DNA of 64,000 bases, from NCBI GenBank assembly GCA_964439835.1, contig CAYTPQ010000003.1:55468-119467 (forward strand), written 5' to 3'. How positions within the stretch are numbered: the first letter of the stretch is position 1; every line of letters starts with the position of its first letter. The stretch comes from an uncultured Ectothiorhodospiraceae bacterium. GTDB lineage: Bacteria > Pseudomonadota > Gammaproteobacteria > JAABTG01. Shown one piece after another: positions 1,619 through 63,180 of this stretch. The notes beneath the pieces are model-generated. The model searched no databases and was not told where the DNA came from. It saw nothing but the letters and a program-made list of their open reading frames with translations. The position numbers were made by a program, and so were the translations under genes.

Positions 1619-1629
1619 CGGGGAAGCAA

Positions 1630-1700
1630 CCACGAAGGACACGAAGAACACCAAGATGTATTCGTCTAAACAAATCTTTGTGTTCTTCGTGTCCTTAGTA
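1630..1700. repeat. Family C hairpin element, copy 1. Arms CCACGAAGGACACGAAGAACAC / GTGTTCTTCGTGTCCTTAG around an AT-rich loop
   Basis: Inverted repeat with a low-GC loop (ccaagatgtattcgtctaaacaaatctttg). A second copy lies at 5439-5570. It sits in the 5' region of the protease gene. Confidence 0.6.
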
Positions 1701-1740
1701 GTTAATCCGTATCCCGTGCAGCACCAAGGTAAACCTGGGG

Positions 1741-5438: not shown

Positions 5439-5570
5439 GAACACCACAAAGGACACGAAGCGAATTGAAGGAGAAGCGAATGCGGCGACCAATCCGGGGC
5501 CTGCCGAGAGGCGTCAGCGGCGCTCCCGTTCTTTCAGCCTCCCTTCTTGTTCTTCGTGTCCTTCGTGGTT
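5439..5570. repeat. Family C hairpin element, copy 2, intergenic between rfbA and rfbC
   Basis: Arms gaacaccacaaaggacacgaag ... cttcttgttcttcgtgtccttcgtggtt share the GGACACGAAG core with the copy at 1630-1700. Confidence 0.55.
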
Positions 5571-5580
5571 TATCCGCTCC

Positions 5581-10739: not shown

Positions 10740-12680
10740 ATGTCCAGGTACTCGGCGGAGCCCGCACAAGACGCTTCACCCGGTTCCCGCCCCCCGCCGG
10801 CCCGTCCCGTCGACTCGAACTGGCTCTGCGGGGTCTTCGACCCGACCGCGGCCGTGCCCCCGAGCGAACGCCTCGGGCCGATGGCAGCGACTGCACCGGC
10901 CTCGGCCCGTCCCGCCACCGCCGCCACCGCCAACGGCTGCACCGTCGCGGCCCACTGGGCGGCCACGGCCGAGGGCCTGCTGGTCGGCGTGGCGGGACAC
11001 CCGTACTGGGACGGGGCGCCCACGGACCTCCCGCAGGACCCCGCCGCGGCGCTGGCAGTTCTCTATCGCCGCATGGGCGAGCGCTGCCTGGCCCCGCTGC
11101 GCGGCGCCTTCACGGTGGCCGTCTACGACCCCGCGGCCGGGACCGGCCTGCTCGCCATCGACCGCATCGGCCAGCACCACCTGTACTACGCGCAGGTCGG
11201 CGAGGCCCTCGCCTTCGGCTCCTCCGCCGACGCGGTGCTGGCCTTCCCGGGCGTGCCGCGCGAGCTCTCCCACGACGCCCTGTTCCAGTACCTGTACTTC
11301 CACATGATCCCGAGCCCGGGGACGGTCTACCGCGCGGTCTCCAAGCTCGAAGGCGCCCACTGCCTCCTCTTCCGCCCCGGCCGCGTCGAGGTCCGTCCCT
11401 ACTGGCGCCCGACCTTCGTCGAGACCTGGGGCGGCCGCGATCAAAGGGGTCTGACCCCATCGGTCCGCGATCAATGGGGTCAGACCCCTTTGATCCGGGC
11501 AGCGGGGGAAGAGCTGCGGGCGCTGCTCCAGGCGGACGTCGCCCGCTACTGCGACCTCCCCGGGGTCGGCGCCTTCTTGAGCGGGGGGCTCGACAGCTCG
11601 ACCGTCGCCGGTCTCCTCGCGCGGGTCCGGCCCGGGGAGGCCCACACCTACTCGGTCGGGTTTGCCGAGGAGCAGTACAACGAGCTGCCTTACGCGCACC
11701 TCAGCGCCGACTGGTTCAAGACCACCCAGCACGACGTCATCGTCTGCCCCGACGACGCCCTCACCGCCGTTGCCACGGTCGCAGCGGCCTTTGACGAGCC
11801 CTTCGGCAACTCCTCGGCGCTCGCCGCCTACTTCTGTGCCAAAGCCGCGCGGGCGGACGGCGTCACCCGGCTCATCGCCGGCGACGGCGGCGATGAGCTC
11901 TTCGCCGGCAACGAGCGCTACGGCAAGCAGCTGGTGTTCGAGGCCTATTTCCGGCTGCCGGTGGCGCTGCGCCGGGGCCTCCTGGAGCCACTGCTGCTCG
12001 GCATCCCCGCCCTCGATCGGGTCCCGTTGGTGAAAAAAGGCGTGAGCTACGTGCGCCAGGCGCTCGTGCGGCTGCCCGACCGCTTCGACACCTACAGCTA
12101 CCTGCACCGGCACCCCCTCACCGAGATCTTCCAGCCGGACTTCCTCGCCAGCGTCGACACCGGGGCCCCGTCGCGCGCGATGCAGGCGCTCTGGGACGCG
12201 GTGCCCGGCGCCAGCACCGTCAACCGGATGCTGTTCCTCGACTGGAAGAAGACCCTGCAGGACAACGACCTGGTCAAGGTCAACCGCATGGCCGAGGCCG
12301 CGGGGGTCGAGGTCGTCTACCCGATGCTGGACGACGCGGTGGTGGAGCTCTCCTGCCGGGTACCGAGCCGGCTGAAGCTGAAACCGGGGCAGCTGCGCTA
12401 CTTCTACAAAGAGGCGATGCGCGGGTTCCTGCCGCCCGAGACCCTGAGCAAGAAGAAGCACGGCTTCGGCCTGCCGTTCGCCATCTGGATCACGAGCCAC
12501 CGGCCGCTGCAGGAGCTCGCCTACGACAGCGTGCTGGCCCTGCGCGACCGCCCCTACCTCCGGCCCGAGTTCTTGGAGAGGGCGATCCGCCTTCATCAGC
12601 ACGATACGGCGGTCTACTACGGCGAGCTGGTCTGGATCCTGATGATGTTGGAGCAGTGGCTGCGCTCTCGCGGTCTCTGA
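10740..12680 (+). CDS. Asparagine synthetase-like glutamine amidotransferase. It resembles exosortase-A-associated amidotransferase 1
   Basis: Class-II GATase region (LCGVFD...), AsnB PP-loop SGGLDSS and a C-terminal AsnB domain. It contains an in-frame family A repeat (11437-11496). An N-terminal extension lies before the catalytic Cys. Confidence 0.8.
   Translation: MSRYSAEPAQDASPGSRPPPARPVDSNWLCGVFDPTAAVPPSERLGPMAATAPASARPATAATANGCTVAAHWAATAEGLLVGVAGHPYWDGAPTDLPQDPAAALAVLYRRMGERCLAPLRGAFTVAVYDPAAGTGLLAIDRIGQHHLYYAQVGEALAFGSSADAVLAFPGVPRELSHDALFQYLYFHMIPSPGTVYRAVSKLEGAHCLLFRPGRVEVRPYWRPTFVETWGGRDQRGLTPSVRDQWGQTPLIRAAGEELRALLQADVARYCDLPGVGAFLSGGLDSSTVAGLLARVRPGEAHTYSVGFAEEQYNELPYAHLSADWFKTTQHDVIVCPDDALTAVATVAAAFDEPFGNSSALAAYFCAKAARADGVTRLIAGDGGDELFAGNERYGKQLVFEAYFRLPVALRRGLLEPLLLGIPALDRVPLVKKGVSYVRQALVRLPDRFDTYSYLHRHPLTEIFQPDFLASVDTGAPSRAMQALWDAVPGASTVNRMLFLDWKKTLQDNDLVKVNRMAEAAGVEVVYPMLDDAVVELSCRVPSRLKLKPGQLRYFYKEAMRGFLPPETLSKKKHGFGLPFAIWITSHRPLQELAYDSVLALRDRPYLRPEFLERAIRLHQHDTAVYYGELVWILMMLEQWLRSRGL
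11437..11496. repeat. Family A palindromic element, copy 1, inserted in frame inside the AsnB-like CDS
   Basis: gatcaaaggggtctgaccccat-cggtccgc-gatcaatggggtcagacccctttgatc. The half-sites are reverse complements of each other. It is translated as ...DQRGLTPSVRDQWGQTPLIR... Confidence 0.75.
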
Positions 12681-15864: not shown

Positions 15865-15880
15865 ACCGCCGTGACGTCGA

Positions 15881-15955
15881 TCACCGCAGAGGCGCAGAGG
15901 CGCAGAGGTATATCCGTGAGCTTTTCTCTGCGCCTCTGCGCCTCTGCGGTGAAAC
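15881..15955. repeat. Family B hairpin element, copy 1. 26-nt near-perfect inverted repeat CACCGCAGAGGCGCAGAGGCGCAGAG with a 20-nt AT-rich loop
   Basis: tcaccgcagaggcgcagaggcgcagagg-tatatccgtgagcttttct-ctgcgcctctgcgcctctgcggtg. It lies between the TDT gene and the RND membrane-fusion gene. Confidence 0.75.
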
Positions 15956-15957
15956 GT

Positions 15958-17040
15958 ATGCGCGCGCGCGCCCTGTTCGCCGCAAGTGGTCAGCGCTGGG
16001 TCGCCCTTGGGACCGCCCTCCTGCTCGTTGCCTGCTCGCCCTCCCCCGCGCCGCCCTCGGCCCAGACCGCCCGGGAGGCCCGCGTACACCTGGTCGAGGT
16101 GGCGACCGCAGCGACCCGGCCGGTGGAGCGGACCAGCGTGAACACCGGGACCCTGAAGGCCCGCCGCCTGCTGCGGGTCTTCACCCAGGAGGAGGGTCGC
16201 ATCACCGCGCTGCCCTTCTTCGAGGGCGACCGGGTCCGCAAGGGCGAGGTGGTGCTGCGCCTGGACGAAGCCCTCCTAAAGACCCAGCTCGACAAGGCCG
16301 TCGCGAGCCGCCAGCAAGCCGACATCGACCTCAAGCGCCTGCAGGGCCTGACCGGCCGTCAACTCGTGTCCGAAGACGAGATCGCCCGGGCGCGCACCGC
16401 CGTCGAGATCGCCCGGGCCGAGGAGGCCGCACTGCAGACGCGCCTCGGGTACGCCGTCGAGCGCGCGCCCTTCGACGCCGTGGTGAGCGCGCGGCTGGCC
16501 GAGCCGGGGGACGTGGTGGCGCGTCACACCCACGTGCTGACCCTGACCGACCCGACATCGCTGGTGACCGAGGTGCCAGTCTCCGAGCTGGTGACCCCCT
16601 ACCTGAAGATCGGGGACCCGGCCGAGGTCCGGGTCGACGCCCTCGGCGCAGCGACCCTAAACGGTCGGATCCTGCGCATCCACCCCGCGCTTGAGGCGCG
16701 CCAGCGCCGGGGGCTGGTGGAGGTGGGCCTGGAGCCCGTGCCGCCGGGTGCACAGGCGGGGCAGTTCGCCCGCGTCACCCTGCGCATCGACGAGGGCGAG
16801 CGGCTGCTGGTGCCGTTCGCGGCCCTGCAACGCGACCGGGACCGCGAGCTCGTGTACCGGGTCGGCGCCGACGGCCGGGTCACCCGTGTGAGCGTGCGCA
16901 GCGGGACCCGCCACGGCAACGCGGTGGAGGTCCTGGAGGGACTCTCCCCCGGCGATACGGTGGTCACGCGCGGCTTCCTCGGCCTGCGCGACGGCCTGAA
17001 GGTCCAAGTGGTGGCGCCGGCCTCCGACCGCAGCGGCTGA
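15958..17040 (+). CDS. RND efflux membrane fusion (periplasmic adaptor) lipoprotein, HlyD family
   Basis: Lipoprotein signal MRARALFAASGQRWVALGTALLLVAC. The coiled-coil and beta-barrel domains are typical of AcrA/MexA-like proteins. The start was placed after the repeat, since the ORF-track start at 15871 reads through the element. Confidence 0.85.
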   Translation: MRARALFAASGQRWVALGTALLLVACSPSPAPPSAQTAREARVHLVEVATAATRPVERTSVNTGTLKARRLLRVFTQEEGRITALPFFEGDRVRKGEVVLRLDEALLKTQLDKAVASRQQADIDLKRLQGLTGRQLVSEDEIARARTAVEIARAEEAALQTRLGYAVERAPFDAVVSARLAEPGDVVARHTHVLTLTDPTSLVTEVPVSELVTPYLKIGDPAEVRVDALGAATLNGRILRIHPALEARQRRGLVEVGLEPVPPGAQAGQFARVTLRIDEGERLLVPFAALQRDRDRELVYRVGADGRVTRVSVRSGTRHGNAVEVLEGLSPGDTVVTRGFLGLRDGLKVQVVAPASDRSG

Positions 17041-17050
17041 CGCGCGGATT

Positions 17051-17127
17051 CCACCGCAGAGGCGCAGAGATATATCTCCATGTTTTCACCGATCAATCCT
17101 CTGCGTCTCTGCGCCTCTGCGGTGAGC
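17051..17127. repeat. Family B hairpin element, copy 2
   Basis: ccaccgcagaggcgcagaga-tatatctccatgttttcaccgatcaatcct-ctgcgtctctgcgcctctgcggtg, lying between the membrane-fusion gene and the RND pump gene. Confidence 0.75.
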
Positions 17128-17150: not shown

Positions 17151-20100
17151 GTGACCCGGCCGTCCGGCAAGGCCGAGCCACCCCACACCGCCGGCGGTCT
17201 GGCCGGCTGGTCGATCCGCCACCCGATCGGGGTGGTGATGCTGTCCCTCGCGGTGGTCGTGCTCGGGGTCTTCGCGGCCTCTCGGCTGGGCATCGACCTG
17301 CTGCCGCACATCGTGTACCCGGAGATCGGGGTCCGGGTCACGGACCCGGGGGTGCCCGCGGTGATCATGGAGGACCAGGTGACCCGCCCGCTCGAGGAGG
17401 CCCTGGCGGCGACGGAGGACGCCATCGCGCTGCAGTCACAGAGCACCGAGGGGCGGAGCAGCGTCGACCTCTCCTTCGCCTACGGCACCGACGTGGACCA
17501 GGCCCTGCGCGACGCCAGCAGCCGGCTGGACCGGGCCAAGCGCCTGCTGCCAACCACCGTCGAGCCGGCCACCATCTTCAAGCGCGACCCCTCCCAGATC
17601 CCGGTGGTGGAGCTGGTGATCGCCTCGCCCCTGCGCGACCCGGTGGCGCTTCGGACCTGGGTCGACGACGTCTTCGCCCGCTGGTTCATCAACCTTCCCG
17701 GCGTCGCCGCCACCGAGGTCGGCGGCGGGCTGGTGCGGGAGATCCACATCCTGCCCGACCAGCAGCGCCTGGCGGGGCTGGGGTTGACGGTGGAGGACCT
17801 GGCGCGCGCGGTCGCGGCGGCGAACCGGGACACCCCAGGCGGGCGCCTGCGTGCGGAGGGCACGGACCTGGTAGGACGCACCAGCGGCCGGTTCGCGGGC
17901 GTCGCGGAGCTGGCCGACCTGCCGCTGGACCTCCCGGGACTCCCGGGCGAGGCGCCGGTCCTGCGTCTGGGCGAGGTCGCCGAGGTCATCGACACCCACG
18001 AGGACGAGCGGCTGCGGGTGCGGGTGAACGGCACCGCCGGCATCAAGCTCTCGGTCCAGAAGCAGCCGCAGGCCAACACAGTCGAGGTGGTCGACGGCGT
18101 CCTCGCGCGCCTCGCCTGGCTGCGGGACCAGGGGCTGGTGCCCGCCGACGTCACCGTGGTCACGGTCGACGAGCAGGCGCGCTACGTCCGCCAGGCCCTG
18201 GCCAACGCCCGGGACGCGGTCGTGAGCGGGGCCGTGCTGGCGATGCTCGTGGTTTATCTGTTCCTCGGCAGTGTCACGCGCACGCTGGTCATCGGCAGCG
18301 TCATTCCGATCGCGGTGATGGTGACCTTCGTGCTGATGGACGCCGGAGGCCTGACACTCAACATCATGTCGCTCGGCGGACTCGCCCTCGGCGTCGGCCT
18401 GCTGGTCGACAACACCATCGTGATGTTGGAGAACGTGGTCCGTCACCAGTCGGCCGGCGAACCGGCGGGGGAAGCCCCGCTCGCCGCCGCCCGGGAGGTG
18501 CAGGGGGCGCTGGTGGCCTCGACCTCGACCAACCTGGCCGCGGTGCTGCCGTTCCTGTTCGTCGGCGGGCTGGTCGGCCTGCTCTTCCGGGAGCTGATCT
18601 TCACCATCTCGGCGGCAACCCTGGCCTCCCTGGTGGTCGCCCTGACCCTGGTGCCGGCGCTCACGGCGAGGTCAGCCCCGTCCGCACCGGGCCGCCTGCG
18701 GCGCGGCGTGGACCGGGCGGTGGACGCCCTGGGCTCGGGCTACGCCCGGCTGGTCGCCCTGACCCTGCGGGTCCCCTGGCTACCTCCGCTCGTGCTCGGG
18801 GCCGTGCTCGCGGCCACCCTGCCGACCTTCCTGACCGGCAAGCAGGTCTTCTTCCCGGACATGGACGAGGGGCGGATCTCGGTCAGCGTGGTGGCCGACC
18901 CCGGCATCCCGCTCGACGAGATGGACAGCCGGGTCGGGCGACTGGAGGCGCTCCTGCTCGCCCAGCCAGAGGTGGTCAACGTCTACGCCCAGGTCGGGGG
19001 CAACGTCTTCGGCCGCTCGCAGTTCGAGTCGCCTAACCGCGCCACCCTGTCGGTGTACCTGGTGCCGGCCGACCGGCGAACGGTCAGCACCGACGGTTGG
19101 ATCCAGCGGATGCAACGGGAGGTCGCCGCACTGAAGCTCGCCGGGACCACGGTGCGGATGACCAGCCAGGGGATCCGGGGGATCCGCTACAGCCGCGGGG
19201 ACGAGAGCCTGAGCGTGCGAGTACGCGGACCGGACCTGGAGGTCCTGGCCCGCCTCGGTGAAGAGGCGGTGGAGCGCATCCGGGACCTGCCGGGCCTGCG
19301 CAACGTCCAGCACTCGCTGGAGGAGGTCCGCCAGGAGCTGTCGGTGCGGGTCGACCGGGAGCGTGCCGCCGCCCTCGGCCTCACGGTCGAGGAGGTGGGC
19401 CGGGCGGTCCAGATTGCCCTAGAGGGGCGCGTGATCTCGGACTTCCTCGACGGCGACCGCCGGTTCGACGTGCGCCTGCGCCTGCCGCCGCTGGAGTTCA
19501 GCAGCGCCGCCGCCCTCGAGGGGCTGCTGCTCTACCCGCCGGCGGGCGAGCGGGCGCCGGTTTACCTCGGCGACGTGGCCCGGGTGGAGCTCGCCCCGGC
19601 CCCGGTCACCATCCGGCGCGACCAGCAGCAGCGGATCGTCGAGGTGAGCGCGAGCCCGACCGGTGAGCGTACCCTTGGCGAGGTCAGTGCGGAGGTCTGG
19701 GCGAGGCTCGCCGATATGCCGCTGCCCGAGGGTTACTCCCTCTACGACGGTGGGACCTTGAAAGCCCTGCAGGAGAGCCAGGGGCAGGGGCGGGCGATGC
19801 TCGGGCTGGCGATCTTCCTGGTGCTGGTCGTGATGGCGGTGCAGTACGAATCGCTGCGAAATCCCTTGGTGGTGCTGGTGAGCGTGCCGTTCGCGGCCAT
19901 CGGCGTGGCGCTGGCGATCCGGGCCCTCGATCTGCCCCTCTCGATGCCGGTCTGGCTCGGCCTCATCATGCTGGCGGGGATCGTGGTCAACAACGCCATC
20001 GTGCTGGTGGAGTACGTCGAGCAGGCCCGGGCCCGCGGGGCCGCGCGGGACGAGGCCATCGTCGAGGCGGCCCGGCTGCGCCTGCGGCCGATCCTGATGA

Positions 20101-20573
20101 CCACCCTGACGACGGTGGTCGGCATGCTGCCCCTGGCGCTGGGCGTCGGCCAGGGCTCGGAGATGCTGCGTCCCCTCGCCCTCACCATCGTCTGGGGCCT
20201 GGCCTTCTCGACCCTGGTCACCCTCATCCTGATCCCTGCGGTCTACCGCCTGGCCCACCCGATCAATGGGGTCAGACACCTTTGGTCGGGGGTTGAGGTC
20301 GCCCGACCAAAGGTGTCTGACCCCATTGATCGCTCGTACCCGTCGCTGCAGTCGTCCGAGCTGGCGGCCAGAGCGGACGTGGAGCCCTCCCCCCCGGCGG
20401 CGGGCGGCCAAACACCGTGGGACTCACTGCCGGCAGAGCAGCAGACGCGCCTGCGGGTCGAGTACGGCCGCTACCTGGACTCGCTACCGCCCACCTGCTC
20501 GCTCGAGGAGAAGAACGCCCGCTTTGCCCGCTGGCTGGCGGAGCGCGGCGTGGTCTACGTCCCGCCGCAATAG
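17151..20573 (+). CDS. RND efflux pump inner-membrane component (HAE1/AcrB family), with an in-frame family A repeat and an ~80-aa C-terminal extension
   Basis: 12-TM AcrB-like architecture (IRHPIGVVMLSLAVVVLG...). TM12 ends at about aa 1035. The repeat at 20261-20331 follows, and the frame stays open for a further 80 aa. Confidence 0.85.
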   Translation: MTRPSGKAEPPHTAGGLAGWSIRHPIGVVMLSLAVVVLGVFAASRLGIDLLPHIVYPEIGVRVTDPGVPAVIMEDQVTRPLEEALAATEDAIALQSQSTEGRSSVDLSFAYGTDVDQALRDASSRLDRAKRLLPTTVEPATIFKRDPSQIPVVELVIASPLRDPVALRTWVDDVFARWFINLPGVAATEVGGGLVREIHILPDQQRLAGLGLTVEDLARAVAAANRDTPGGRLRAEGTDLVGRTSGRFAGVAELADLPLDLPGLPGEAPVLRLGEVAEVIDTHEDERLRVRVNGTAGIKLSVQKQPQANTVEVVDGVLARLAWLRDQGLVPADVTVVTVDEQARYVRQALANARDAVVSGAVLAMLVVYLFLGSVTRTLVIGSVIPIAVMVTFVLMDAGGLTLNIMSLGGLALGVGLLVDNTIVMLENVVRHQSAGEPAGEAPLAAAREVQGALVASTSTNLAAVLPFLFVGGLVGLLFRELIFTISAATLASLVVALTLVPALTARSAPSAPGRLRRGVDRAVDALGSGYARLVALTLRVPWLPPLVLGAVLAATLPTFLTGKQVFFPDMDEGRISVSVVADPGIPLDEMDSRVGRLEALLLAQPEVVNVYAQVGGNVFGRSQFESPNRATLSVYLVPADRRTVSTDGWIQRMQREVAALKLAGTTVRMTSQGIRGIRYSRGDESLSVRVRGPDLEVLARLGEEAVERIRDLPGLRNVQHSLEEVRQELSVRVDRERAAALGLTVEEVGRAVQIALEGRVISDFLDGDRRFDVRLRLPPLEFSSAAALEGLLLYPPAGERAPVYLGDVARVELAPAPVTIRRDQQQRIVEVSASPTGERTLGEVSAEVWARLADMPLPEGYSLYDGGTLKALQESQGQGRAMLGLAIFLVLVVMAVQYESLRNPLVVLVSVPFAAIGVALAIRALDLPLSMPVWLGLIMLAGIVVNNAIVLVEYVEQARARGAARDEAIVEAARLRLRPILMTTLTTVVGMLPLALGVGQGSEMLRPLALTIVWGLAFSTLVTLILIPAVYRLAHPINGVRHLWSGVEVARPKVSDPIDRSYPSLQSSELAARADVEPSPPAAGGQTPWDSLPAEQQTRLRVEYGRYLDSLPPTCSLEEKNARFARWLAERGVVYVPPQ
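20261..20331. repeat. Family A palindromic element, copy 2, in frame in the C-terminal tail of the RND pump ORF
   Basis: gatcaatggggtcagacacctttggtcggg-ggttgaggtc-gcccgaccaaaggtgtctgaccccattgatc, translated as ...INGVRHLWSGVEVARPKVSDPID... Confidence 0.75.
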
Positions 20574-27372: not shown

Positions 27373-27446
27373 AAGTATCCTCAATTGGCGTGGGGTCTTC
27401 TGCACAAATTAGACTTTGGTTGTATACGCCTTCGCGAGCGCTCCCC

Positions 27447-30341
27447 ATGCAGGACCCTGCTGCCCGCTCCGACCTCGACGTCGGTCGCGTCGAGGTCAAG
27501 AACACCACGTGCTACATGTGCGCCTGTCGCTGCGGGATCCGGGTGACGGTCCGCGACGGCCAGGTCCGCTACATCCAGGGCAACCCCGACCACCCCCTGA
27601 ACCGCGGCGTCATCTGTGCCAAGGGGGCCTCGGGGATCATGAAGCAGTACTCGCCCGCCCGGCTCACCGTGCCCCTGCGGCGCAAGCCGGAGGCGGTGCG
27701 CGGCGAAGGCCAGTTCGAGGCGATCTCCTGGGACGAGGCCTTCCACACCCTGGAGGACCGCCTGGCGCGTATCCGGGCCGAGGACCCCCGGCAGTTCGCG
27801 CTCTTCACCGGGCGCGACCAGATGCAGGCCTTGACCGGACTCTTCGCCAAGCAGTTCGGCACCCCGAACTACGCCGCCCACGGCGGGTTCTGCTCGGTCA
27901 ACATGGCCGCCGGGATGATCTACACCATCGGCGGCTCGTTCTGGGAGTTCGGCGGGCCGGACCTGGAGCGCGCCAAGCTCTTCGTGATGCTCGGCACCGC
28001 CGAGGACCACCACTCGAACCCGTACAAGATCGCCATCTCCAAGCTCAAGCGCAGCGGCGGCCGGTTCGTCTCCGTGAACCCGGTGCGCACCGGCTACTCG
28101 GCCATCGCCGACGAGTGGGTGCCGGTCCGCCCCGGCACGGACGGCGCGCTGCTGCTGGCCTGGATCCGGGAGATCCTCCACCAGGGCCTGTACGACCGGG
28201 ACTTCCTGATCCGCTACACCAACGCCGCCGAGCTGGTCGACCTGACCCCGGGGGGCGGCGACGAAGGGCTGTTCGTGCGCGGGGCCGCGCCGATCGAGCC
28301 GGGCTGCTTCGACCCCCAGAACAAGCTCTGGTGGGACCGGGTCACCAACCAGCCGGTCACCACCCACGCCGAGGGCGCCGACCCCTACCTGCTCGGGTCC
28401 TTCCGCCTGGGTGACGGCCGCCCGGTCAAGCCCGCCTTCCAGCTGCTGAAGGAGCGGGTCGAGGACTACACGCCCGAGTGGGCCGAGGGGATCACCGGCG
28501 TGCCCGCGGCGACCATCCGCCGGCTCGCCCACGAGATGGGGGTCACCGCCCGCGACCAGCGAATCGAGCTGCCGATCCCCTGGACCGACTGCTGGGACCA
28601 GGAGCACGGCTCGGTCACCGGCAACCCGGTGGCCTTCCACGCCATGCGCGGGCTCGCCGCCCACTCGAACGGCTTCCAGACCATCCGCGCCCTGGCGGTC
28701 CTGATGACGCTGCTCGGCACCATCGACCGCCCGGGCGGCTTCCGGCACAAGCCGCCGTTCCCCCGCCCGATCCCGCCCTGCGCCAAGCCGCCGAAGGGGC
28801 CCCAGGACGTCCGTCCGGGGGAGCCGCTCACCGGGATGCCGCTCGGCTGGCCGGCCTCTCCCGACGACCTGGCGGTGGACGAGGCGGGCGAGCCGCTGCG
28901 GATCGACCGGGCCTTCTCCTGGGAGTACCCGCTGGCGGTCCACGGGCTGATGCACAACGTCATCACCAACGCCTGGCGGGGCGACCCCTACCGGATCGAC
29001 ACCCTGCTGATCTTCATGGCCAACATGGCCTGGAACTCGACCATGCACACGGCCGAGGTCCGGCAGATGCTGGCGGACCGGGACGGGCAAGGCGAGTACC
29101 GCATCCCGTTCCTGGTAGTGGCGGACGCCTTCCAGTCGGAGATAACGGCCTTCGCCGACCTGGTTCTCCCGGACACCACGTACCTGGAGCGCCACGACGT
29201 GATGTCGATGCTGGACCGGCCGATCTCGGAGTTCGACGGCCCGGTCGACTCGGTCCGCATCCCGGTGGTCTCGCCCAAGGGCCAGTGCAAGCCGTTCCAG
29301 GAGGTGCTGATCGAGCTCGGCTCGCGCCTGCGGCTGCCGGCCTTCCTGAACCCGGACGGGACCCGGCGGTACCGGGACTACCCGGACTTCGTCGTCAACT
29401 ACGAGACCGAGCCGGGCAGCGGGATCGGCTTCCTCGCGGGCTGGCGCGGCAAGGGCGGCGAGCGCTTCATGCGCGGCGAGCCGAACCCCCGACAGTGGGA
29501 CATGTACGCCCAGAACGGCGCCTTCTTCCACTACGAGCTGCCGCGCTCGTTCCAGTACATGCGCAACTGGAACAAGGGCTACCTGAACTGGGCCCGCCAC
29601 CACGGCCTGACCCGCTTCGCCGAGCCCATCACCATCCACCTGTACTCGGAGGTCTTGCAGCGCTTCCGGCTCGCCGCCGAAGGCCGGCGCCCGGGCCGCC
29701 AACCACCCGAGCGCCTGCGCGAGCGGGTGCGCACGCACTTCGACCCGCTGCCCTTCTACAGCGAGCCATTGGAGTCCCAGCTAGTGGACACCCAGAGGTA
29801 CCCGCTGAACGCTGTCACCCAGCGGCCGATGGCGATGTACCACTCCTGGGACAGCCAGAATGCGTGGCTACGCCAGATCCATGCCCACAACTACCTGTTC
29901 GTGCACCCGAAGGTGGGCCACGCGGGCAGCTTCGACGACGGCGACTGGGTGTGGGTGGAGTCGGTCTGGGGACGGGTGCGCTGCATGGCCCGCTTCTCGG
30001 AGGGCGTCGAGCCCGGCACGGTCTGGACCTGGAACGCCATCGGCAAGGCGCCGGGCGCCTGGGGGCTGTCGCCGAAGGCCAACGAGGCCCGCCTGGGATT
30101 TCTCCTGAACCACGTGATCGGCGAGGAGCTGCCCGCCCACGCCGCCGGTGAGCACGTCTCCAACTCGGACCCGGTGACCGGCCAGGCGGCCTGGTACGAC
30201 GCCCGCGTGCGGGTCTACCGGGCCGACCCGAGCGAGCCGCGGCGGACCTCGCCGGAGTTCAAGGCGCTGAGGCCCTACCCGGGGATGGAGCCGCGCCGGG
30301 GCCGGTGGCTCACCTTCGTGGCGGGTATGTTCGGCAAATGA
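27447..30341 (+). CDS. Molybdopterin-dependent oxidoreductase catalytic subunit (DMSO reductase family; PsrA/PhsA/TtrA-like). No Tat signal is detectable
   Basis: N-terminal [4Fe-4S] motif CYMCACRCG and bis-MGD domain architecture. It is followed by FeS and NrfD-like subunit genes. The N-terminus MQDPAARSDLDVGRVEVKNTTC has no RRxFLK motif and no hydrophobic core. Confidence 0.85.
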   Translation: MQDPAARSDLDVGRVEVKNTTCYMCACRCGIRVTVRDGQVRYIQGNPDHPLNRGVICAKGASGIMKQYSPARLTVPLRRKPEAVRGEGQFEAISWDEAFHTLEDRLARIRAEDPRQFALFTGRDQMQALTGLFAKQFGTPNYAAHGGFCSVNMAAGMIYTIGGSFWEFGGPDLERAKLFVMLGTAEDHHSNPYKIAISKLKRSGGRFVSVNPVRTGYSAIADEWVPVRPGTDGALLLAWIREILHQGLYDRDFLIRYTNAAELVDLTPGGGDEGLFVRGAAPIEPGCFDPQNKLWWDRVTNQPVTTHAEGADPYLLGSFRLGDGRPVKPAFQLLKERVEDYTPEWAEGITGVPAATIRRLAHEMGVTARDQRIELPIPWTDCWDQEHGSVTGNPVAFHAMRGLAAHSNGFQTIRALAVLMTLLGTIDRPGGFRHKPPFPRPIPPCAKPPKGPQDVRPGEPLTGMPLGWPASPDDLAVDEAGEPLRIDRAFSWEYPLAVHGLMHNVITNAWRGDPYRIDTLLIFMANMAWNSTMHTAEVRQMLADRDGQGEYRIPFLVVADAFQSEITAFADLVLPDTTYLERHDVMSMLDRPISEFDGPVDSVRIPVVSPKGQCKPFQEVLIELGSRLRLPAFLNPDGTRRYRDYPDFVVNYETEPGSGIGFLAGWRGKGGERFMRGEPNPRQWDMYAQNGAFFHYELPRSFQYMRNWNKGYLNWARHHGLTRFAEPITIHLYSEVLQRFRLAAEGRRPGRQPPERLRERVRTHFDPLPFYSEPLESQLVDTQRYPLNAVTQRPMAMYHSWDSQNAWLRQIHAHNYLFVHPKVGHAGSFDDGDWVWVESVWGRVRCMARFSEGVEPGTVWTWNAIGKAPGAWGLSPKANEARLGFLLNHVIGEELPAHAAGEHVSNSDPVTGQAAWYDARVRVYRADPSEPRRTSPEFKALRPYPGMEPRRGRWLTFVAGMFGK

Positions 30342-30344
30342 AGC

Positions 30345-30433
30345 ATCAAAGGGGTCAGACTCGATTGATCCACCGGCGACCCGACCGATGCCTGCGACCC
30401 GGCCGGGATCAATCGAGTCTGACCCCTTTGATC
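30345..30433. repeat. Family A palindromic element, copy 3, intergenic between the oxidoreductase A and B subunit genes
   Basis: atcaaaggggtcagactcgattgatcc-...-ggatcaatcgagtctgacccctttgatc. Confidence 0.7.
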
Positions 30434-30447
30434 GCGGGGGCGCCGTC

Positions 30448-31179
30448 GTGACGCAGCTTGCGCTTGTCATCGACCTGAATGTGTGCGTGGGCTGCCATGC
30501 CTGTGTCACCAGCTGCAAGGAGTGGAACACCTCCGGCTGGGCCGGGCCCCTGTCCGACGAGCGGGCCTACGGCCCCGACCCGACCGGCACCTTCTTCAAC
30601 CGGGTGCAGACCTTCGAGGTGGGCGAGTACCCCAACACCGAGGTGGTGCACTTCCCGAAGAGCTGCCTGCACTGCGAGGACCCGCCCTGCGTGCCGGTGT
30701 GTCCGACCGGGGCGTCCTACAAGCGGCCCGAGGACGGCATCGTGCTGGTGGACTACGACAAGTGCATCGCCTGCAAGTACTGCTCCTGGGCCTGCCCGTA
30801 CGGCGCCCGCGAGGTCGACGCCCGCCAGCGGGTGATGAAGAAGTGCACGCTCTGCGTCGACCGCATCTACGACCGGCGCCTGCCGGAGGCCGAGCGCAAG
30901 CCGGCCTGCGTGCTGGCCTGCCCCACTGGGGCCCGACTCTTCGGCGACGTGCACGACCCGGACTCCGAGGTGTCGGTGGCCATCCGCGAGCTCGGCGGCT
31001 ACCCCCTGATGCCGGAGTGGGGCACCCGGCCGGCCAACCACTACCTGCCGCGGCGCAAGACCCGCATCCGGCTGCACGAGGACGAGCTGATGCGGGCCGA
31101 CAACCCGCTGCGCAAGGAGGGCCTGTTGCCCGAGCCGCCGCCGGGGCAGCACACCCTGGACGACGTCATGAGCTGGTAG
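30448..31179 (+). CDS. 4Fe-4S ferredoxin-type electron-transfer subunit (DmsB/PsrB family)
   Basis: Four Cys clusters (CVGCHACVTSC, CLHCEDPPCVPVC, CIACKYCSWAC, CTLC...CVLAC). A GTG start was chosen immediately after the repeat, and it is uncertain. Confidence 0.75.
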   Translation: MTQLALVIDLNVCVGCHACVTSCKEWNTSGWAGPLSDERAYGPDPTGTFFNRVQTFEVGEYPNTEVVHFPKSCLHCEDPPCVPVCPTGASYKRPEDGIVLVDYDKCIACKYCSWACPYGAREVDARQRVMKKCTLCVDRIYDRRLPEAERKPACVLACPTGARLFGDVHDPDSEVSVAIRELGGYPLMPEWGTRPANHYLPRRKTRIRLHEDELMRADNPLRKEGLLPEPPPGQHTLDDVMSW

Positions 31180-32167: not shown

Positions 32168-32183
32168 CGGACGGGGGGCAGGC

Positions 32184-32282
32184 CCCCGGTACGGTCCCGC
32201 GGGACACGCCGCAAGTACGTCCCTGTAGGCTCGTCTGCCGCCATCCATGGCGTCAGACGGTCCCGCGAAACCGTACCGGGGA
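32184..32282. repeat. Family D ~100-bp nested-hairpin element, copy 1 (subtype 1)
   Basis: cccggtacggtcccgcgggacacgccgcaagtacgtccctgtaggctcgtctgccgccatccatggcgtcagacggtcccgcgaaaccgtaccgggg. It has terminal and internal inverted repeats and lies between convergent genes. Confidence 0.75.
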
Positions 32283-32357
32283 CCTGCGTCCAACTGGTCG
32301 GTTGCCTCGGCAAAGCGCGCCCAAAGTACCGCTGGGATTTCCCGGGAGACCGGGAAG

Positions 32358-40142: not shown

Positions 40143-40204
40143 GGGCACCGCATCCGCAAATTCATTAGGGCCGGCTGAGAATCCCTGCACCGGGCTTCAA
40201 GCAG

Positions 40205-40305
40205 GTTTCCGGTGCGGTTTTGCGGGACCGTATGCCGCCTGGATGGCGGCATACGAGCCTACAGGGACGTATTCACGGCGCGTCCCGCGGGACCGCACCG
40301 GGAAT
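40205..40305. repeat. Family D nested-hairpin element, copy 2 (subtype 2, reverse orientation)
   Basis: Its reverse complement aligns with copy 4 (cccggtgcggtcccgcgggac.cgccgtgaatacgtccctgtaggctcg.atgccgcc...). It lies between convergent genes. Confidence 0.7.
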
Positions 40306-40346
40306 CTGCTGGCACGGTGGCGAGACCGTAGTCTTTCGCCTGCTCA

Positions 40347-61790: not shown

Positions 61791-61843
61791 TCGGTTGCGC
61801 GGCGGCTACAAGACATCGCAAGCCGCGAGGTAGGCGGGCAGGT

Positions 61844-61942
61844 CCCCGGTACGGTCCCGCGGGACACGCCGCAAGTACATCCCTGTAGGCTCGTCTGCCG
61901 CCGTCCCTGGCGTCAGACGGTCCCGCAAGACCGTACCGGGGA
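61844..61942. repeat. Family D nested-hairpin element, copy 3 (subtype 1)
   Basis: Near-identical to copy 1 (ccccggtacggtcccgcgggacacgccgcaagtacatccctgtaggctcgtctgccgccgtccctggcgtcagacggtcccgcaagaccgtaccgggga). Confidence 0.75.
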
Positions 61943-62135
61943 CCTGCTCGAAGGTTGGCGCGAGAATCCTAGGAGCATGTCGGACTTCGCCGCGCCGCGA
62001 GATCCCAGGCGCACAGCTCGAGTTTCTCAATCGCCATCAGCCCCAGACTTCGCGTAGACGGGCCCAAGTTGCTCACGATCTTCGCTTACCGGGAGTGCCG
62101 AAAGCGAGGATGCGAAGAACCGCTCGTCCGGACTC

Positions 62136-63005: not shown

Positions 63006-63046
63006 CGGATCAACGCCTGTGAAGAAATTGACCCGCGCGGCAGGCT

Positions 63047-63142
63047 CCCGGTGCGGTCCCGCGGGACACGCCGTGAATACGTCCCTGTAGGCTCGGATGC
63101 CGCCGTCCGGGCGGCATACGTTCCCGCGAAACCGCCCCGGGA
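63047..63142. repeat. Family D nested-hairpin element, copy 4 (subtype 2)
   Basis: cccggtgcggtcccgcgggacacgccgtgaatacgtccctgtaggctcggatgccgccgtccgggcggcatacgttcccgcgaaaccgccccggga. Confidence 0.7.
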
Positions 63143-63180
63143 TCCTGCTCGACGGTGTTCCCGAACACTTCTTCGTGGGC

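What the first reader, a model, noticed from the sequence alone, without database searches (positions are those of the whole stretch)
11437..11496. Palindromic MITE-like element (family A) inserted in frame inside two protein-coding genes, RPE-style
A roughly 60-90-bp element with termini GATCAA(A/T)GGGGTC(A/T)GAC.C and reverse-complementary halves occurs three times: 11437-11496, 20261-20331 and 30345-30433. Copy 1 sits inside the AsnB-like amidotransferase ORF and copy 2 inside the C-terminal tail of the RND pump ORF. Both keep the reading frame, adding ...DQRGLTPSVRDQWGQTPLIR... and ...INGVRHLWSGVEVARPKVSDPID... Copy 3 is intergenic. In-frame insertion of palindromic repeats into ORFs is what Rickettsia RPEs and some Neisseria Correia elements do, and it is rarely annotated. 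It adds novel peptide loops to proteins, and here the loops carry a shared GSDPFD/QWGQTPL-like signature. The same element in three unrelated contexts argues that it is mobile.
Basis: seen in the sequence. Interest (0 to 1): 0.72.

Follow-up and report, generated by a model that had tools for sequence, protein, structure and literature searches.

The report
REP doublets inserted in frame in genes
The three palindromic repeats are real copies of a small mobile hairpin element (a REP doublet, or REPIN) whose tyrosine transposase gene sits between the same repeats in other bacteria; one copy adds a tolerated 19-residue loop to an asparagine-synthase-like enzyme, which is a known kind of event.

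Summary
There are three inverted doublets of a 25-27-nt imperfect palindrome, at 11439-11495, 20261-20331 and 30344-30433, and none in shuffled sequence.

Copy 1 is a true in-frame insertion of 57 nt (19 codons). It lies in the interdomain linker of an AsnB-like amidotransferase. Ninety of 95 homologues have 7-10 residues there and the window has 27. Four close relatives carry double, single or decayed versions at the same site, and the gene stays under purifying selection.

Copy 2 is not an internal loop. It starts where more than 100 RND homologues end, in the spacer before a small gene that is free-standing elsewhere. The long ORF exists only because no stop codon intervenes.

Copy 3 lies between two genes of an operon.

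The unit (ATCAATGGGGTCAGACTCGATTGAT) recurs nearly unchanged in many Gamma- and Betaproteobacteria and in some other lineages. It brackets a Y1/HUH tyrosine transposase (RAYT) gene at fixed positions, about -77 nt from the start and -11 nt from the end, on both sides in 23 of 80 homologue loci. The element is therefore a REPIN-type miniature of a RAYT cassette, closest to the published TIRYT type. It is not an RPE or a Correia element. In-frame insertions recur in other genomes. The phenomenon is published, so this is a new member of a known kind.

The parts
11439..11495 (.). Copy 1: doublet of two 27-nt near-perfect palindromic units (11439-11465 and 11469-11495) with a 3-nt spacer. It is 57 nt, exactly 19 codons, encoding DQRGLTPSVRDQWGQTPLI.
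   Evidence: The insertion is shown.
10740..12680 (+). AsnB-like amidotransferase ORF that hosts copy 1. Domains: GATase_7 and Asn_synthase. The best NCBIfam match is the XrtA/PEP-CTERM amidotransferase TIGR03108, but below its cut-off. The start codon is not verified: homology begins near 10824, and 10740 is the first ATG.
20261..20331 (.). Copy 2: doublet of 71 nt, with perfectly complementary 31-nt arms at 20260-20290 and 20302-20332. The inner half of each unit is the variant ACACCTTTGGTC, which removes the TGA that the canonical unit has in this frame.
17151..20258 (+). RND efflux permease gene proper. Homologues end within about 2-20 residues after YRLAH (about 20258), which is at the left edge of copy 2. 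The mechanical ORF runs on to 20573.
20379..20573 (+). Probable separate small gene, with a candidate GTG start at 20379. It belongs to a family of free-standing 55-105-aa proteins (...PWDxL..LRVEYGxYLDxLPPTCSLEEK..RFARWLAE.GV). It is in frame with the pump ORF through copy 2, with no stop codon between them.
   Evidence: There is no Pfam match. The start codon is inferred.
30344..30433 (.). Copy 3: canonical doublet of 90 nt (units 30344-30370 and 30407-30433). It is intergenic, lying 2 nt after the stop of the molybdopterin oxidoreductase ORF (27390-30341) and before the 4Fe-4S subunit ORF (probable GTG start at 30448, ending at 31179).

Best explanation
The three copies are REPIN-type elements. 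Each consists of two copies of a 25-27-nt imperfect palindrome (canonical form ATCAATGGGGTCAGACTCGATTGAT) in inverted orientation around a short variable spacer.

In other genomes the same unit brackets the gene for a Y1/HUH tyrosine transposase of the RAYT type; the flanking repeats match the published TIRYT-type motif. A '+' unit lies about 77 nt upstream of the gene, and a '-' unit overlaps its last codons. The doublets therefore look like transposase-less miniatures of that cassette.

Inferred mechanism: the transposase recognises the folded single-stranded hairpin. It then cuts and rejoins it, probably at replication forks, spreading doublets without target-site duplication.

The unit has no stop codon in 4 of its 6 frames, and the genome is about 70% G+C. 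Insertions into coding DNA can therefore stay open.

- Copy 1 inserted 57 nt (19 codons) into the flexible linker between the glutaminase and synthetase domains of an AsnB-like amidotransferase. This happened in an ancestor shared with related organisms. It has been tolerated since then and remodelled by in-frame 30-nt deletions and point decay.
- Copy 2 sits at the 3' end of an RND pump gene, in the spacer before a small downstream gene. The two ORFs are fused only on paper, or possibly in fact.
- Copy 3 is an ordinary intergenic copy inside an operon.

What is shown: the repeat structure, the insertion, its age, the loop location and the transposase association in other genomes. What is inferred: the transposition mechanism, the presence of the transposase in the source genome, and translation of the copy 2 read-through.
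For: Repeat and hairpin structure.

Insertion at copy 1: 90 of 95 homologues have 7-10 residues between FVE and GEEL. The window has 27, which is 8 + 19.

Same-site variants in relatives:
- L001 has a diverged 57-nt doublet.
- L003 has a single 27-nt unit.
- L006 has a single unit.
- L004 has a 27-nt decayed segment, 14/27 identical to the unit.

Gene integrity: dN/dS is 0.21-0.31 between these genes.

Structure: the AlphaFold2 model has mean pLDDT 92.4. The lowest 10-residue blocks are residues 201-220 (59 and 56), which hold the insert. They are unstructured and lie between the last strand of the glutaminase domain and the first helix of the synthetase domain. Pfam places the start of Asn_synthase at residue 230.

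Distribution: an exact doublet pattern found 69 loci in many Gammaproteobacteria MAGs, Thauera sp. UBA6194 (14 doublets), Deefgea isolates, Methylophaga, Legionella anisa, Mariprofundus and others. They share one canonical unit.

Transposase association:
- ORFs next to the doublets in four genomes match Pfam Y1_Tnp (53 bits, cut-off 23; L067 ORF) and, best of all NCBIfam families, REP_Tyr_transpos (L067 and L029 ORFs).
- In L067 the gene has a doublet 63 nt upstream and a unit overlapping its stop codon.
- Among 80 metagenomic homologue loci, 31 have a '+' unit upstream, mostly at about -72 to -88. Twenty-five have a unit at or just after the 3' end, the '-' unit at -11 in 18 of them. Twenty-three have units on both sides.

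Recurrent in-frame insertion elsewhere: doublets lie inside TmcA-like, HemN-like radical SAM, RimK-like, acyl-CoA-synthetase-like, NadD, DEAD helicase and FtsX-like genes. In five of the seven a Pfam domain spans the insert or domains lie on both sides.

Literature:
- Intragenic REP dimers encoding 20-30 aa, and TIRYT genes flanked by inverted repeats with a GGGGWSAS motif (ours reads GGGGTCAG), are described in PMC3733652.
- In-frame REP insertions, and the link between subclass 2.1 and TIRYT, are described in PMC6006769.
Against: - No transposase gene of this type is in the window or in the relatives' loci. Its presence in the source genome is therefore unproven.
- The NCBIfam REP_Tyr_transpos scores (76 and 69 bits) are just below the curated cut-off of 80.
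- The unit lacks the GTAG or CGTC tag of classical REPs.
- The copy number in the source genome is unknown; there are only 3 doublets in 64 kb.
- 45 of the 80 transposase homologue loci show no unit at up to 4 mismatches.
- The units of copy 1 are symmetrical variants (GGGGTCWGACCCC), not the canonical asymmetric unit.
- No transposition has been observed. The copy 1 site is old, so it says nothing about current activity.
Confidence: 0.8

Rival explanations
1. The element is a classical MITE, meaning a deletion derivative of a DDE-type insertion sequence. Or it is a member of the Rickettsia RPE or Neisseria Correia families, as the first reader suggested by analogy.
For: It has terminal inverted repeats, is small (57-90 nt), occurs in unrelated contexts and is inserted in frame like RPEs.
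Against: There are no direct target-site duplications at any of the three copies. The only gene repeatedly bracketed by the unit is a Y1/HUH tyrosine transposase, not a DDE enzyme. Each arm is itself a hairpin-forming palindrome, as in REPs. The hosts are Gamma- and Betaproteobacteria of many genera rather than Rickettsia or Neisseria. The comparison with RPE and Correia sequences was made from memory only, not by alignment.
Confidence: 0.04
2. The repeats are host-selected structural motifs, for example protein-binding sites, mRNA-stabilising hairpins or translational-coupling hairpins. On this view their palindromy is maintained by selection, they spread mainly by recombination or gene conversion, and the transposase association is incidental.
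For: Arm complementarity is perfect in copies 2 and 3 even though the inner sequence differs from the canonical unit. There is a compensatory GGAG...CTCC change within one arm in L001. Copy 3 lies 2 nt after a stop codon inside an operon, the typical position of REPs thought to act on RNA (PMC3733652). The insert in the AsnB-like gene is about 91% identical between the window and L001 (49 of 54 arm positions, my count on the sequences), although dS is 0.45.
Against: The stereotyped bracketing of the transposase gene in 23 of 80 loci, and across distant taxa, is hard to explain without a mechanistic link. Relatives tolerate single, double and decayed versions at the AsnB site, so nothing specific is required there. 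The variants could simply have been copied from variant master copies; similar variants exist in L006, L010 and L038. A host function and transposase-driven spread are not mutually exclusive.
Confidence: 0.12
3. The segments in the two ORFs are ancestral coding sequence that merely resembles the intergenic repeat, or the match is due to chance.
For: Four relatives have related sequence at the same AsnB site. A relative of the pump also has an open fusion to the small gene.
Against: Ninety of 95 AsnB-like homologues lack the segment, and the excess length equals exactly one or two units. No units occur in shuffled sequence. The same 25-mer occurs intergenically and in unrelated genes in many taxa. 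The pump relative has a different repeat, not this one, in the spacer.
Confidence: 0.02

Closest known systems
REP / REPIN-RAYT systems (Nunvar 2010, PMC2817692; Bertels & Rainey 2011, PMC3116915; Ton-Hoang/Corneloup 2021, PMC8266576)
   Same: The units are short imperfect palindromes. They are arranged as inverted doublets around a short spacer that fold into a long hairpin. Most copies are intergenic, and there are no target-site duplications. A Y1/HUH tyrosine transposase gene is flanked by the same units. Units and doublets both occur.
   Different: There is no GTAG (or CGTC) tetranucleotide at the foot of the hairpin. The unit sequence is almost identical across different classes of bacteria, whereas REPs are usually species-specific. 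Apparent copy numbers are modest. The transposase gene is bracketed by single units in inverted orientation at fixed distances, more like the ends of an insertion sequence.
TIRYT / 'TIRtron' tyrosine transposases (Di Nocera et al. 2013, PMC3733652). Quentin et al. 2018 (PMC6006769) equate these with TnpA-REP subclass 2.1, to which they also assign nearly all of Bertels' RAYT Group 1.
   Same: The transposase gene is flanked by terminal inverted repeats rather than GTAG REPs. The published repeat motif GGGG[AT][CG]A[CG] fits GGGGTCAG in our unit. The repeats form moderately abundant families, organised as singles, dimers or clusters. The protein is longer than E. coli RAYT, with a C-terminal extension. 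The host range is wide.
   Different: I could not place the transposase in subclass 2.1 or Group 1 by phylogeny. No HTH or Bac_DnaA_C domain was detected in its C-terminal part. I found no published record of this particular 25-nt unit. In the parts of PMC3733652 that I read, in-frame gene insertions are described for GTAG and CGTC REPs and are not mentioned for TIRYT repeats.
Intragenic REPs and Rickettsia palindromic elements (RPE), as summarised in PMC3733652
   Same: Palindromic repeats are inserted in frame in functional genes. They are often dimers encoding 20-30 residues, and the insertions are proposed to sit in flexible linkers or loops. The same is true here for the AsnB-like protein and for at least seven genes in other genomes.
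   Different: The RPE families belong to Rickettsia, and PMC3733652 assigns RPE-4 and RPE-6 to the CGTC class, which has no associated transposase. Here the unit has neither tag, does have an associated transposase, and is mostly intergenic.
IS200/IS605 insertion sequences and their miniature derivatives
   Same: The transposase has the HUH and Y motifs and matches Pfam Y1_Tnp. The ends are subterminal hairpins rather than simple inverted repeats. There are no target duplications. The cassette layout is unit, gene, inverted unit.
   Different: NCBIfam scores the protein far better as a REP-associated transposase (76 bits) than as IS200 (23 bits, cut-off 55). In the loci I looked at, each genome showed one transposase gene but many doublets (I did not count transposase copies per genome), and the two ends are the same unit inverted.
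Neisseria Correia elements
   Same: They are small inverted-repeat elements that are sometimes co-transcribed with genes or lie inside them.
   Different: From memory, Correia elements are 100-155 bp with 26-bp inverted repeats and a TA duplication, and no tyrosine transposase is associated. None of the three copies has a duplicated TA, and the termini differ.

Membership tests
REP/REPIN-RAYT system | The unit is a short (about 20-40 nt) imperfect palindrome able to fold as a single-stranded hairpin. | tested here: met
   The units are 25-27 nt. In the canonical unit ATCAATGGGGTC pairs with the reverse complement of GACTCGATTGAT at 10 of 12 positions. Folding z-scores are -7.4 to -12.2.
REP/REPIN-RAYT system | Two units lie in inverted orientation around a short spacer (a REPIN doublet). 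| tested here: met
   All three window copies have this form, as do 76 doublets in 69 loci of other genomes. Spacers between the 25-nt units range from 2 to about 40 nt.
REP/REPIN-RAYT system | A cognate Y1/HUH tyrosine transposase gene is flanked by the same repeat. | tested here: met
   This holds in other genomes. In L067 there is a doublet 63 nt upstream and a unit overlapping the stop codon. Of 80 homologue loci, 23 have units on both sides, mostly near -77 and at -11. It could not be tested for the source genome, and no such gene is in the window.
REP/REPIN-RAYT system | The transposase scores as a RAYT rather than as an IS200 transposase. | tested here: inconclusive
   NCBIfam REP_Tyr_transpos gives 76.2 and 69.3 bits against a cut-off of 80. 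IS200 gives 22.9 bits against a cut-off of 55. Pfam Y1_Tnp gives 53 bits against a cut-off of 23. The HVH and Y...NP motifs are visible in the sequence.
REP/REPIN-RAYT system | A conserved GTAG (GT[AG]G) tetranucleotide sits at the foot of the hairpin (classical REPs). | tested here: not met
   There is no GTAG or CGTC next to the units in any of the 79 doublets listed. The flanks are purine-rich on the left and pyrimidine-rich on the right.
REP/REPIN-RAYT system | High copy number, dispersed through the genome and mainly extragenic. | tested here: inconclusive
   There are 3 doublets in 64 kb of the window. Thauera sp. UBA6194 has at least 14 exact doublets in 12 loci. About 60 of 76 doublets elsewhere are not inside long ORFs. 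No whole-genome count for the source organism is possible.
TIRYT / TIRtron (TnpA-REP subclass 2.1) | The inverted repeats flanking the gene carry the motif GGGG[AT][CG]A[CG]. | tested here: met
   The unit contains GGGGTCAG. The motif is taken from PMC3733652 and PMC6006769.
TIRYT / TIRtron (TnpA-REP subclass 2.1) | The protein clusters with subclass 2.1 / Group 1 and has an HTH-like C-terminal domain. | tested here: inconclusive
   The protein has about 100 extra C-terminal residues, but Pfam finds no HTH or Bac_DnaA_C match even at E<=10. No reference sequences were available for a tree.
Classical MITE | Terminal inverted repeats plus direct target-site duplications, and derivation from a DDE-type IS. 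| tested here: not met
   Inverted termini are present, but the flanks of the three copies are not direct repeats. The associated enzyme is Y1/HUH.
Rickettsia palindromic elements (RPE) | Sequence membership in families RPE-1 to RPE-8 of Rickettsia. | not tested
The host range found here and the absence of the CGTC tag that PMC3733652 assigns to RPE-4 and RPE-6 both argue against membership.
Rickettsia palindromic elements (RPE) | In-frame insertion into genes that remain functional (the behaviour, not family membership). | tested here: met
   Copy 1. Other genomes.
Neisseria Correia element | 26-bp inverted repeats with a TA target duplication, 100-155 bp long. | tested here: not met
   The lengths here are 57-90 nt, and there is no duplicated TA at the borders. 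The Correia features are recalled from memory.

The most novel reading that the evidence does not exclude
This could be a single REPIN-RAYT lineage of the TIRYT type whose 25-nt recognition hairpin has stayed almost invariant while spreading across several classes of bacteria. Because the unit is stop-free in 4 of its 6 frames, the lineage would repeatedly seed 9-28-residue inserts into housekeeping enzymes. The inserts carry the signatures GSDSID, SIESDPID, QWGQTRLI and SSLTPLI. Hairpin complementarity would remain under selection even inside coding DNA. If so, this would be a widespread and easily traceable source of new protein loops. It would also give the first defined cognate repeat, with a fixed -77/-11 geometry, for a transposase subclass for which Quentin et al. 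2018 (PMC6006769) found no REP-like sequences near the gene.
Probability: 0.25. Interest if true: 0.6.

Novelty: new member of a known kind. Interest (0 to 1): 0.42.

Why it matters
Annotation: the 1140-aa 'pump' is probably a pump gene plus a separate small gene, joined through a repeat. The 19 odd residues in the amidotransferase come from a repeat and are not a functional motif.

Biology: the AsnB site gives a dated series of one in-frame REP insertion in five related organisms, in double, single and decayed forms. This shows how such inserts are tolerated and eroded in a flexible linker.

More broadly, the unit and its fixed placement around a tyrosine transposase gene give a concrete substrate for biochemical tests of a poorly characterised transposase group. 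The conserved peptide signatures could also be used to flag repeat-derived inserts in protein databases.

Tried and rejected
- A full-text search for the unit sequence found only unrelated primer matches. The supplements of PMC3733652 do not contain it.
- Rfam at gathering thresholds found nothing in the window.
- tblastn with the two transposases found no copy in the window or in the relatives' loci.
- Clustering ORFs across the 69 loci mostly recovered common signalling and transport domains. Only one small cluster was informative, and it was the transposase.
- Pfam has no family for the small downstream protein.
- phmmer of the transposase against PDB sequences found nothing.
- I first took 10824 as a TTG/CTG start of the AsnB-like gene. 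The codon there is CTC, so the start is unresolved.
- I considered a Tn3-type origin, because GGGGTCTGAC resembles the start of the Tn3 inverted repeat (from memory). I dropped it because the conserved unit extends 6-7 nt beyond the GGGG and there is no 5-bp duplication.
- I considered that TTGAT at the unit ends might be a cleavage or target motif, as I recall for ISDra2. The paper I consulted does not contain that sequence, so this remains an untested lead.
Full report
**1. The observation**

Each is an inverted doublet of a 25-27-nt unit.

| Copy | Coordinates | Length | Left arm | Spacer | Right arm |
|---|---|---|---|---|---|
| 1 | 11439-11495 | 57 nt | GATCAAAGGGGTCTGACCCCATCGGTC | CGC | GATCAATGGGGTCAGACCCCTTTGATC |
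| 2 | 20261-20331 | 71 nt | GATCAATGGGGTCAGACACCTTTGGTC | 17 nt | exact reverse complement of the left arm |
| 3 | 30344-30433 | 90 nt | CATCAAAGGGGTCAGACTCGATTGATC | 36 nt | GATCAATCGAGTCTGACCCCTTTGATC |

In copy 2, perfect complementarity extends over 31 nt.

The 17-nt half-site at up to 3 mismatches gives 14 matches against 0.23 expected, and 12 of them lie in these copies. A search with three 25-mer variants at up to 6 mismatches finds exactly six units in the window and none in 20 shuffles. As single-stranded DNA the copies fold far better than shuffled versions, with z-scores of -7.4 to -12.2. Rfam has no match.

**2. Copy 1 is a real, old, in-frame insertion**

ORF 10740-12680 has GATase_7 and Asn_synthase domains. 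Its best NCBIfam match is the XrtA/PEP-CTERM amidotransferase, well below the cut-off. The 57 nt are exactly 19 codons, encoding DQRGLTPSVRDQWGQTPLI.

I aligned 95 homologues and measured the stretch between the conserved FVE and GEEL.

| Stretch length | Sequences |
|---|---|
| 7-10 residues | 90 homologues |
| 12 residues | 1 homologue (P0004) |
| 17 residues | 2 homologues (P0001, P0003) |
| 27 residues | the window and P0002 |

The excess is exactly one unit (9 codons) or a doublet (19 codons).

The DNA of the four closest relatives shows the following at the same site:
- L001 (P0002) has a diverged doublet, with a compensatory GGAG...CTCC change in one arm.
- L003 (P0001) has a single unit, AATCAAAGGGGTCTGACCCCATCGATC.
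- L006 (P0004) has a single unit, GATCAAAGGGGTCAGACACCTTCGATC.
- L004 (P0003) has 27 nt that match the unit at only 14 of 27 positions.

By synonymous distance the window is closest to L003, and L001 lies outside that pair. The simplest history is therefore an ancestral doublet from which L003 lost 30 nt. The 6-nt direct repeat GATCCG at the ends of both arms would allow exactly that deletion (my inference from the sequences).

dN/dS between these genes is 0.21-0.31, so the gene has stayed under purifying selection with the insert in place.

An AlphaFold2 model built from the 95-sequence alignment has mean pLDDT 92.4. Its lowest 10-residue blocks are residues 201-220 (59 and 56; numbering from 10824), which hold the insert. 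They are unstructured and lie between the last strand of the glutaminase domain and the first helix of the synthetase domain.

That test comes out in favour of an insertion.

**3. Copy 2 is at the end of the pump gene, not inside it**

The RND profile matches end at residue 1032-1038 of the 1140-aa ORF. More than 100 homologues cover only about 73% of the last 390 residues. Their C-termini fall 2-20 residues after YRLAH, which is at the left edge of the doublet.

The last about 50 residues of the ORF belong to a family in which nearly all of the 114 cluster representatives found are free-standing proteins of 44-132 aa, most of them 55-105 aa. A GTG at 20379 would give a product of typical length (inferred).

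In this reading frame the canonical unit would read INGVRLD and then TGA. The window's variant (TTTGGTC instead of ATTGATC, mirrored in the other arm) has no stop, so the ORF runs on.

The closest relative found (P0121/L076) also shows an open fusion. Its spacer is filled by a different tandem repeat of about 85 nt, not by this element.

Whether the pump really carries the extension cannot be decided here. At about 70% G+C an open stretch of about 60 codons is not unlikely by chance (my rough estimate is about 1 in 3).

**4. Copy 3**

Copy 3 is the canonical form. It lies 2 nt after the stop of a molybdopterin oxidoreductase ORF and ahead of the 4Fe-4S subunit ORF. This is an ordinary intra-operon intergenic position.

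**5. What the element is**

*Distribution.* I scanned one genome per species for the exact doublet pattern. The scan returned 69 loci:
- many Gammaproteobacteria MAGs;
- Thauera sp. UBA6194 (12 loci, 14 doublets);
- Deefgea isolates, Methylophaga and Legionella anisa;
- Mariprofundus, Gallionellaceae and Rhodocyclaceae;
- single bins labelled Inquilinus, Gemmatimonadaceae and Planctomycetales. Contamination of these bins cannot be excluded.

Almost all of these doublets share one unit, ATCAATGGGGTCAGACTCGATTGAT. It is followed by a variable spacer and then the inverted unit. The unit is an imperfect palindrome whose asymmetry is conserved across taxa.

*The associated gene.* Clustering ORFs across these loci picked out one small family lying beside the doublets in four genomes.
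- It matches Pfam Y1_Tnp (53 bits, cut-off 23; tested on the L067 ORF).
- Its best NCBIfam match is REP_Tyr_transpos (76 bits for the L067 ORF and 69 bits for the L029 ORF, cut-off 80).
- The HUH and Y...NP motifs are visible in the sequence.

In L067 the gene has a doublet 63 nt upstream, and a unit overlaps its stop codon. Its C-terminal ...INRV is encoded by the repeat.

*The decisive test.* I fetched 80 metagenomic loci encoding homologues 48-59% identical to this protein. One search gave these counts:

| Feature | Loci (of 80) |
|---|---|
| The unit present at up to 4 mismatches | 35 |
| A '+' unit upstream, mostly at -72 to -88 from the start | 31 |
| A unit at or just after the 3' end (the '-' unit at -11 from the end in 18) | 25 |
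| Units on both sides | 23 |

The doublets therefore have the same orientation as the two ends of a unit-gene-unit cassette, with the gene missing. This is the REP/REPIN-RAYT arrangement.

*Comparison with the literature.*
- The unit lacks the GTAG tag of classical REPs.
- It contains GGGGTCAG. This fits the motif GGGG[AT][CG]A[CG] reported for the inverted repeats around 'TIRYT' tyrosine transposases (PMC3733652).
- Quentin et al. equate TIRYT with TnpA-REP subclass 2.1, to which they also assign nearly all of Bertels' RAYT Group 1 (PMC6006769).
- I could not test that placement by phylogeny, and no HTH domain was detected in the C-terminal part.
- The symmetrical arms of copy 1 (GGGGTCWGACCCC) look like what Quentin et al. 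call a 'double foot', which a central deletion within an inverted dimer would produce. This is an inference.

*Other points.* None of the three copies has direct target-site duplications. No transposase gene of this type lies in the window.

**6. In-frame insertions recur**

The unit has no stop codon in 4 of its 6 frames (read directly from the sequence). Of the 76 doublets in other genomes, most are not inside long ORFs. About ten sit inside ORFs that extend at least 60 codons on both sides. Seven of these were checked against Pfam and are real genes.

| Locus | Gene type |
|---|---|
| L072 | TmcA-like |
| L021 | HemN-like radical SAM |
| L064 | RimK-like |
| L074 | CoA-ligase/ATP-grasp |
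| L036 | NadD-like |
| L032 | DEAD helicase |
| L038 | FtsX-like permease |

In five of them (L072, L021, L064, L074, L036) a domain spans the insert or domains lie on both sides. In L032 and L038 the Pfam matches lie on one side only.

The inserted peptides repeat the same signatures: (S/K)MGSDSID, QWGQTRLI, SIESDPID and QSSLTPLI.

**7. Mechanism**

By analogy with characterised RAYT and IS200/IS605 enzymes (PMC6006769, PMC8266576), the transposase would bind the folded single-stranded unit. It would then cleave and rejoin it, most likely on the lagging-strand template. This is inferred, not shown.

A host role for the hairpins is not excluded. Possible roles include mRNA stabilisation or translational coupling at copy 3, or selection for complementarity. 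I rate this as the main rival or complement.

**8. Novelty**

In-frame intragenic REP dimers encoding 20-30 residues, proposed to lie in flexible linkers, are described in PMC3733652 and noted again in PMC6006769. The transposase type and its repeat motif are also published.

Possibly new:
- this specific unit, which I did not find in the searchable literature;
- its near-invariance across classes of bacteria;
- the fixed -77/-11 geometry;
- the five-genome decay series at one protein site.

Verdict: a real feature that is well explained and is a new member of a known kind. It is of moderate interest.

Noticed in passing
window 32173-32287, 61833-61947, 63035-63149, and 40200-40310: A second palindromic repeat family of about 115 nt, with arms such as GCAGGCCCCCGGTACGGTCCCGCGGGAC / GTCCCGCGAAACCGTACCGGGGACCTGC. 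There are three to four copies, and two of them are 94% identical. It is unrelated in sequence to the element studied here.
   Followed up: no
window 15881-15952 and 17052-17124: A third hairpin repeat, CACCGCAGAGGCGCAGAG... / ...CTCTGCGCCTCTGCGGTG. One copy is at the 5' end of the ORF called for the membrane-fusion protein (15871-17040) and one is between that gene and the RND pump gene. The first may wrongly extend the annotated N-terminus (...TAEAQRRRG...LCASAV...).
   Followed up: no
window 1628-1703 and 5443-5576: A fourth, A+T-richer hairpin repeat, AACCACGAAGGACACGAAGAACAC... / ...GTGTTCTTCGTGTCCTT.GT.GTT. It lies in gaps of synteny with the relative L001.
   Followed up: no
L076 630-815: In the closest pump relative, the spacer between the pump and the small gene holds two tandem copies of about 85 nt (...GGGGACATCCCGGGTTTCCC...CCCGGGCAACAGGCGAAGCCGGCGGTGAGGGG). 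It is also open in frame, so this intergenic spot seems to attract different repeats in different lineages.
   Followed up: partly
window 20379-20573; P0241-P0354: A small conserved protein family (about 55-105 aa; motif LRVEYGxYLDxLPPTCSLEEKxxRFARWLAExGV) with no Pfam model. A few long proteins contain 6-12 tandem copies of the motif (P0248, P0315, P0337, P0342).
   Followed up: partly
L067 5153-5177; L049 410-434; 18 of the 80 loci L077-L156: The last four codons and the stop of the transposase gene (...INRV*) are encoded by the repeat unit itself. The enzyme's C-terminus and its own recognition hairpin therefore overlap.
   Followed up: partly
L008 104-2596 (minus strand): A large repetitive, adhesin-like ORF (831 aa within the locus) carries two separate copies of the doublet in frame: ESMGSDSINTSAQGHETAAPIVVTESDPID and ESMGSDSIDAQARETAAPIVAIASDPID. 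The ORF was not checked against Pfam.
   Followed up: no
Flanks of doublets in L017, L025, L050, L053, L057, L062, L071, L073, L021, L049, L060: Many doublets are adjoined by partial extra copies of their own termini, for example aatggggtcaaa|ATCAATGGGG or ATTGAT|tctgaccccatt. These may be traces of nested insertion or of the cleavage and rejoining site.
   Followed up: no
window 10740-10830 and alignment A1, columns 1-10: Many homologues of the AsnB-like protein have LFG or LDG instead of the N-terminal catalytic Cys (LCG) of glutamine amidotransferases. In the window the codon aligned with the relatives' start is GTC, not a start codon. The glutaminase activity and the true start of this subfamily are therefore uncertain.
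   Followed up: no
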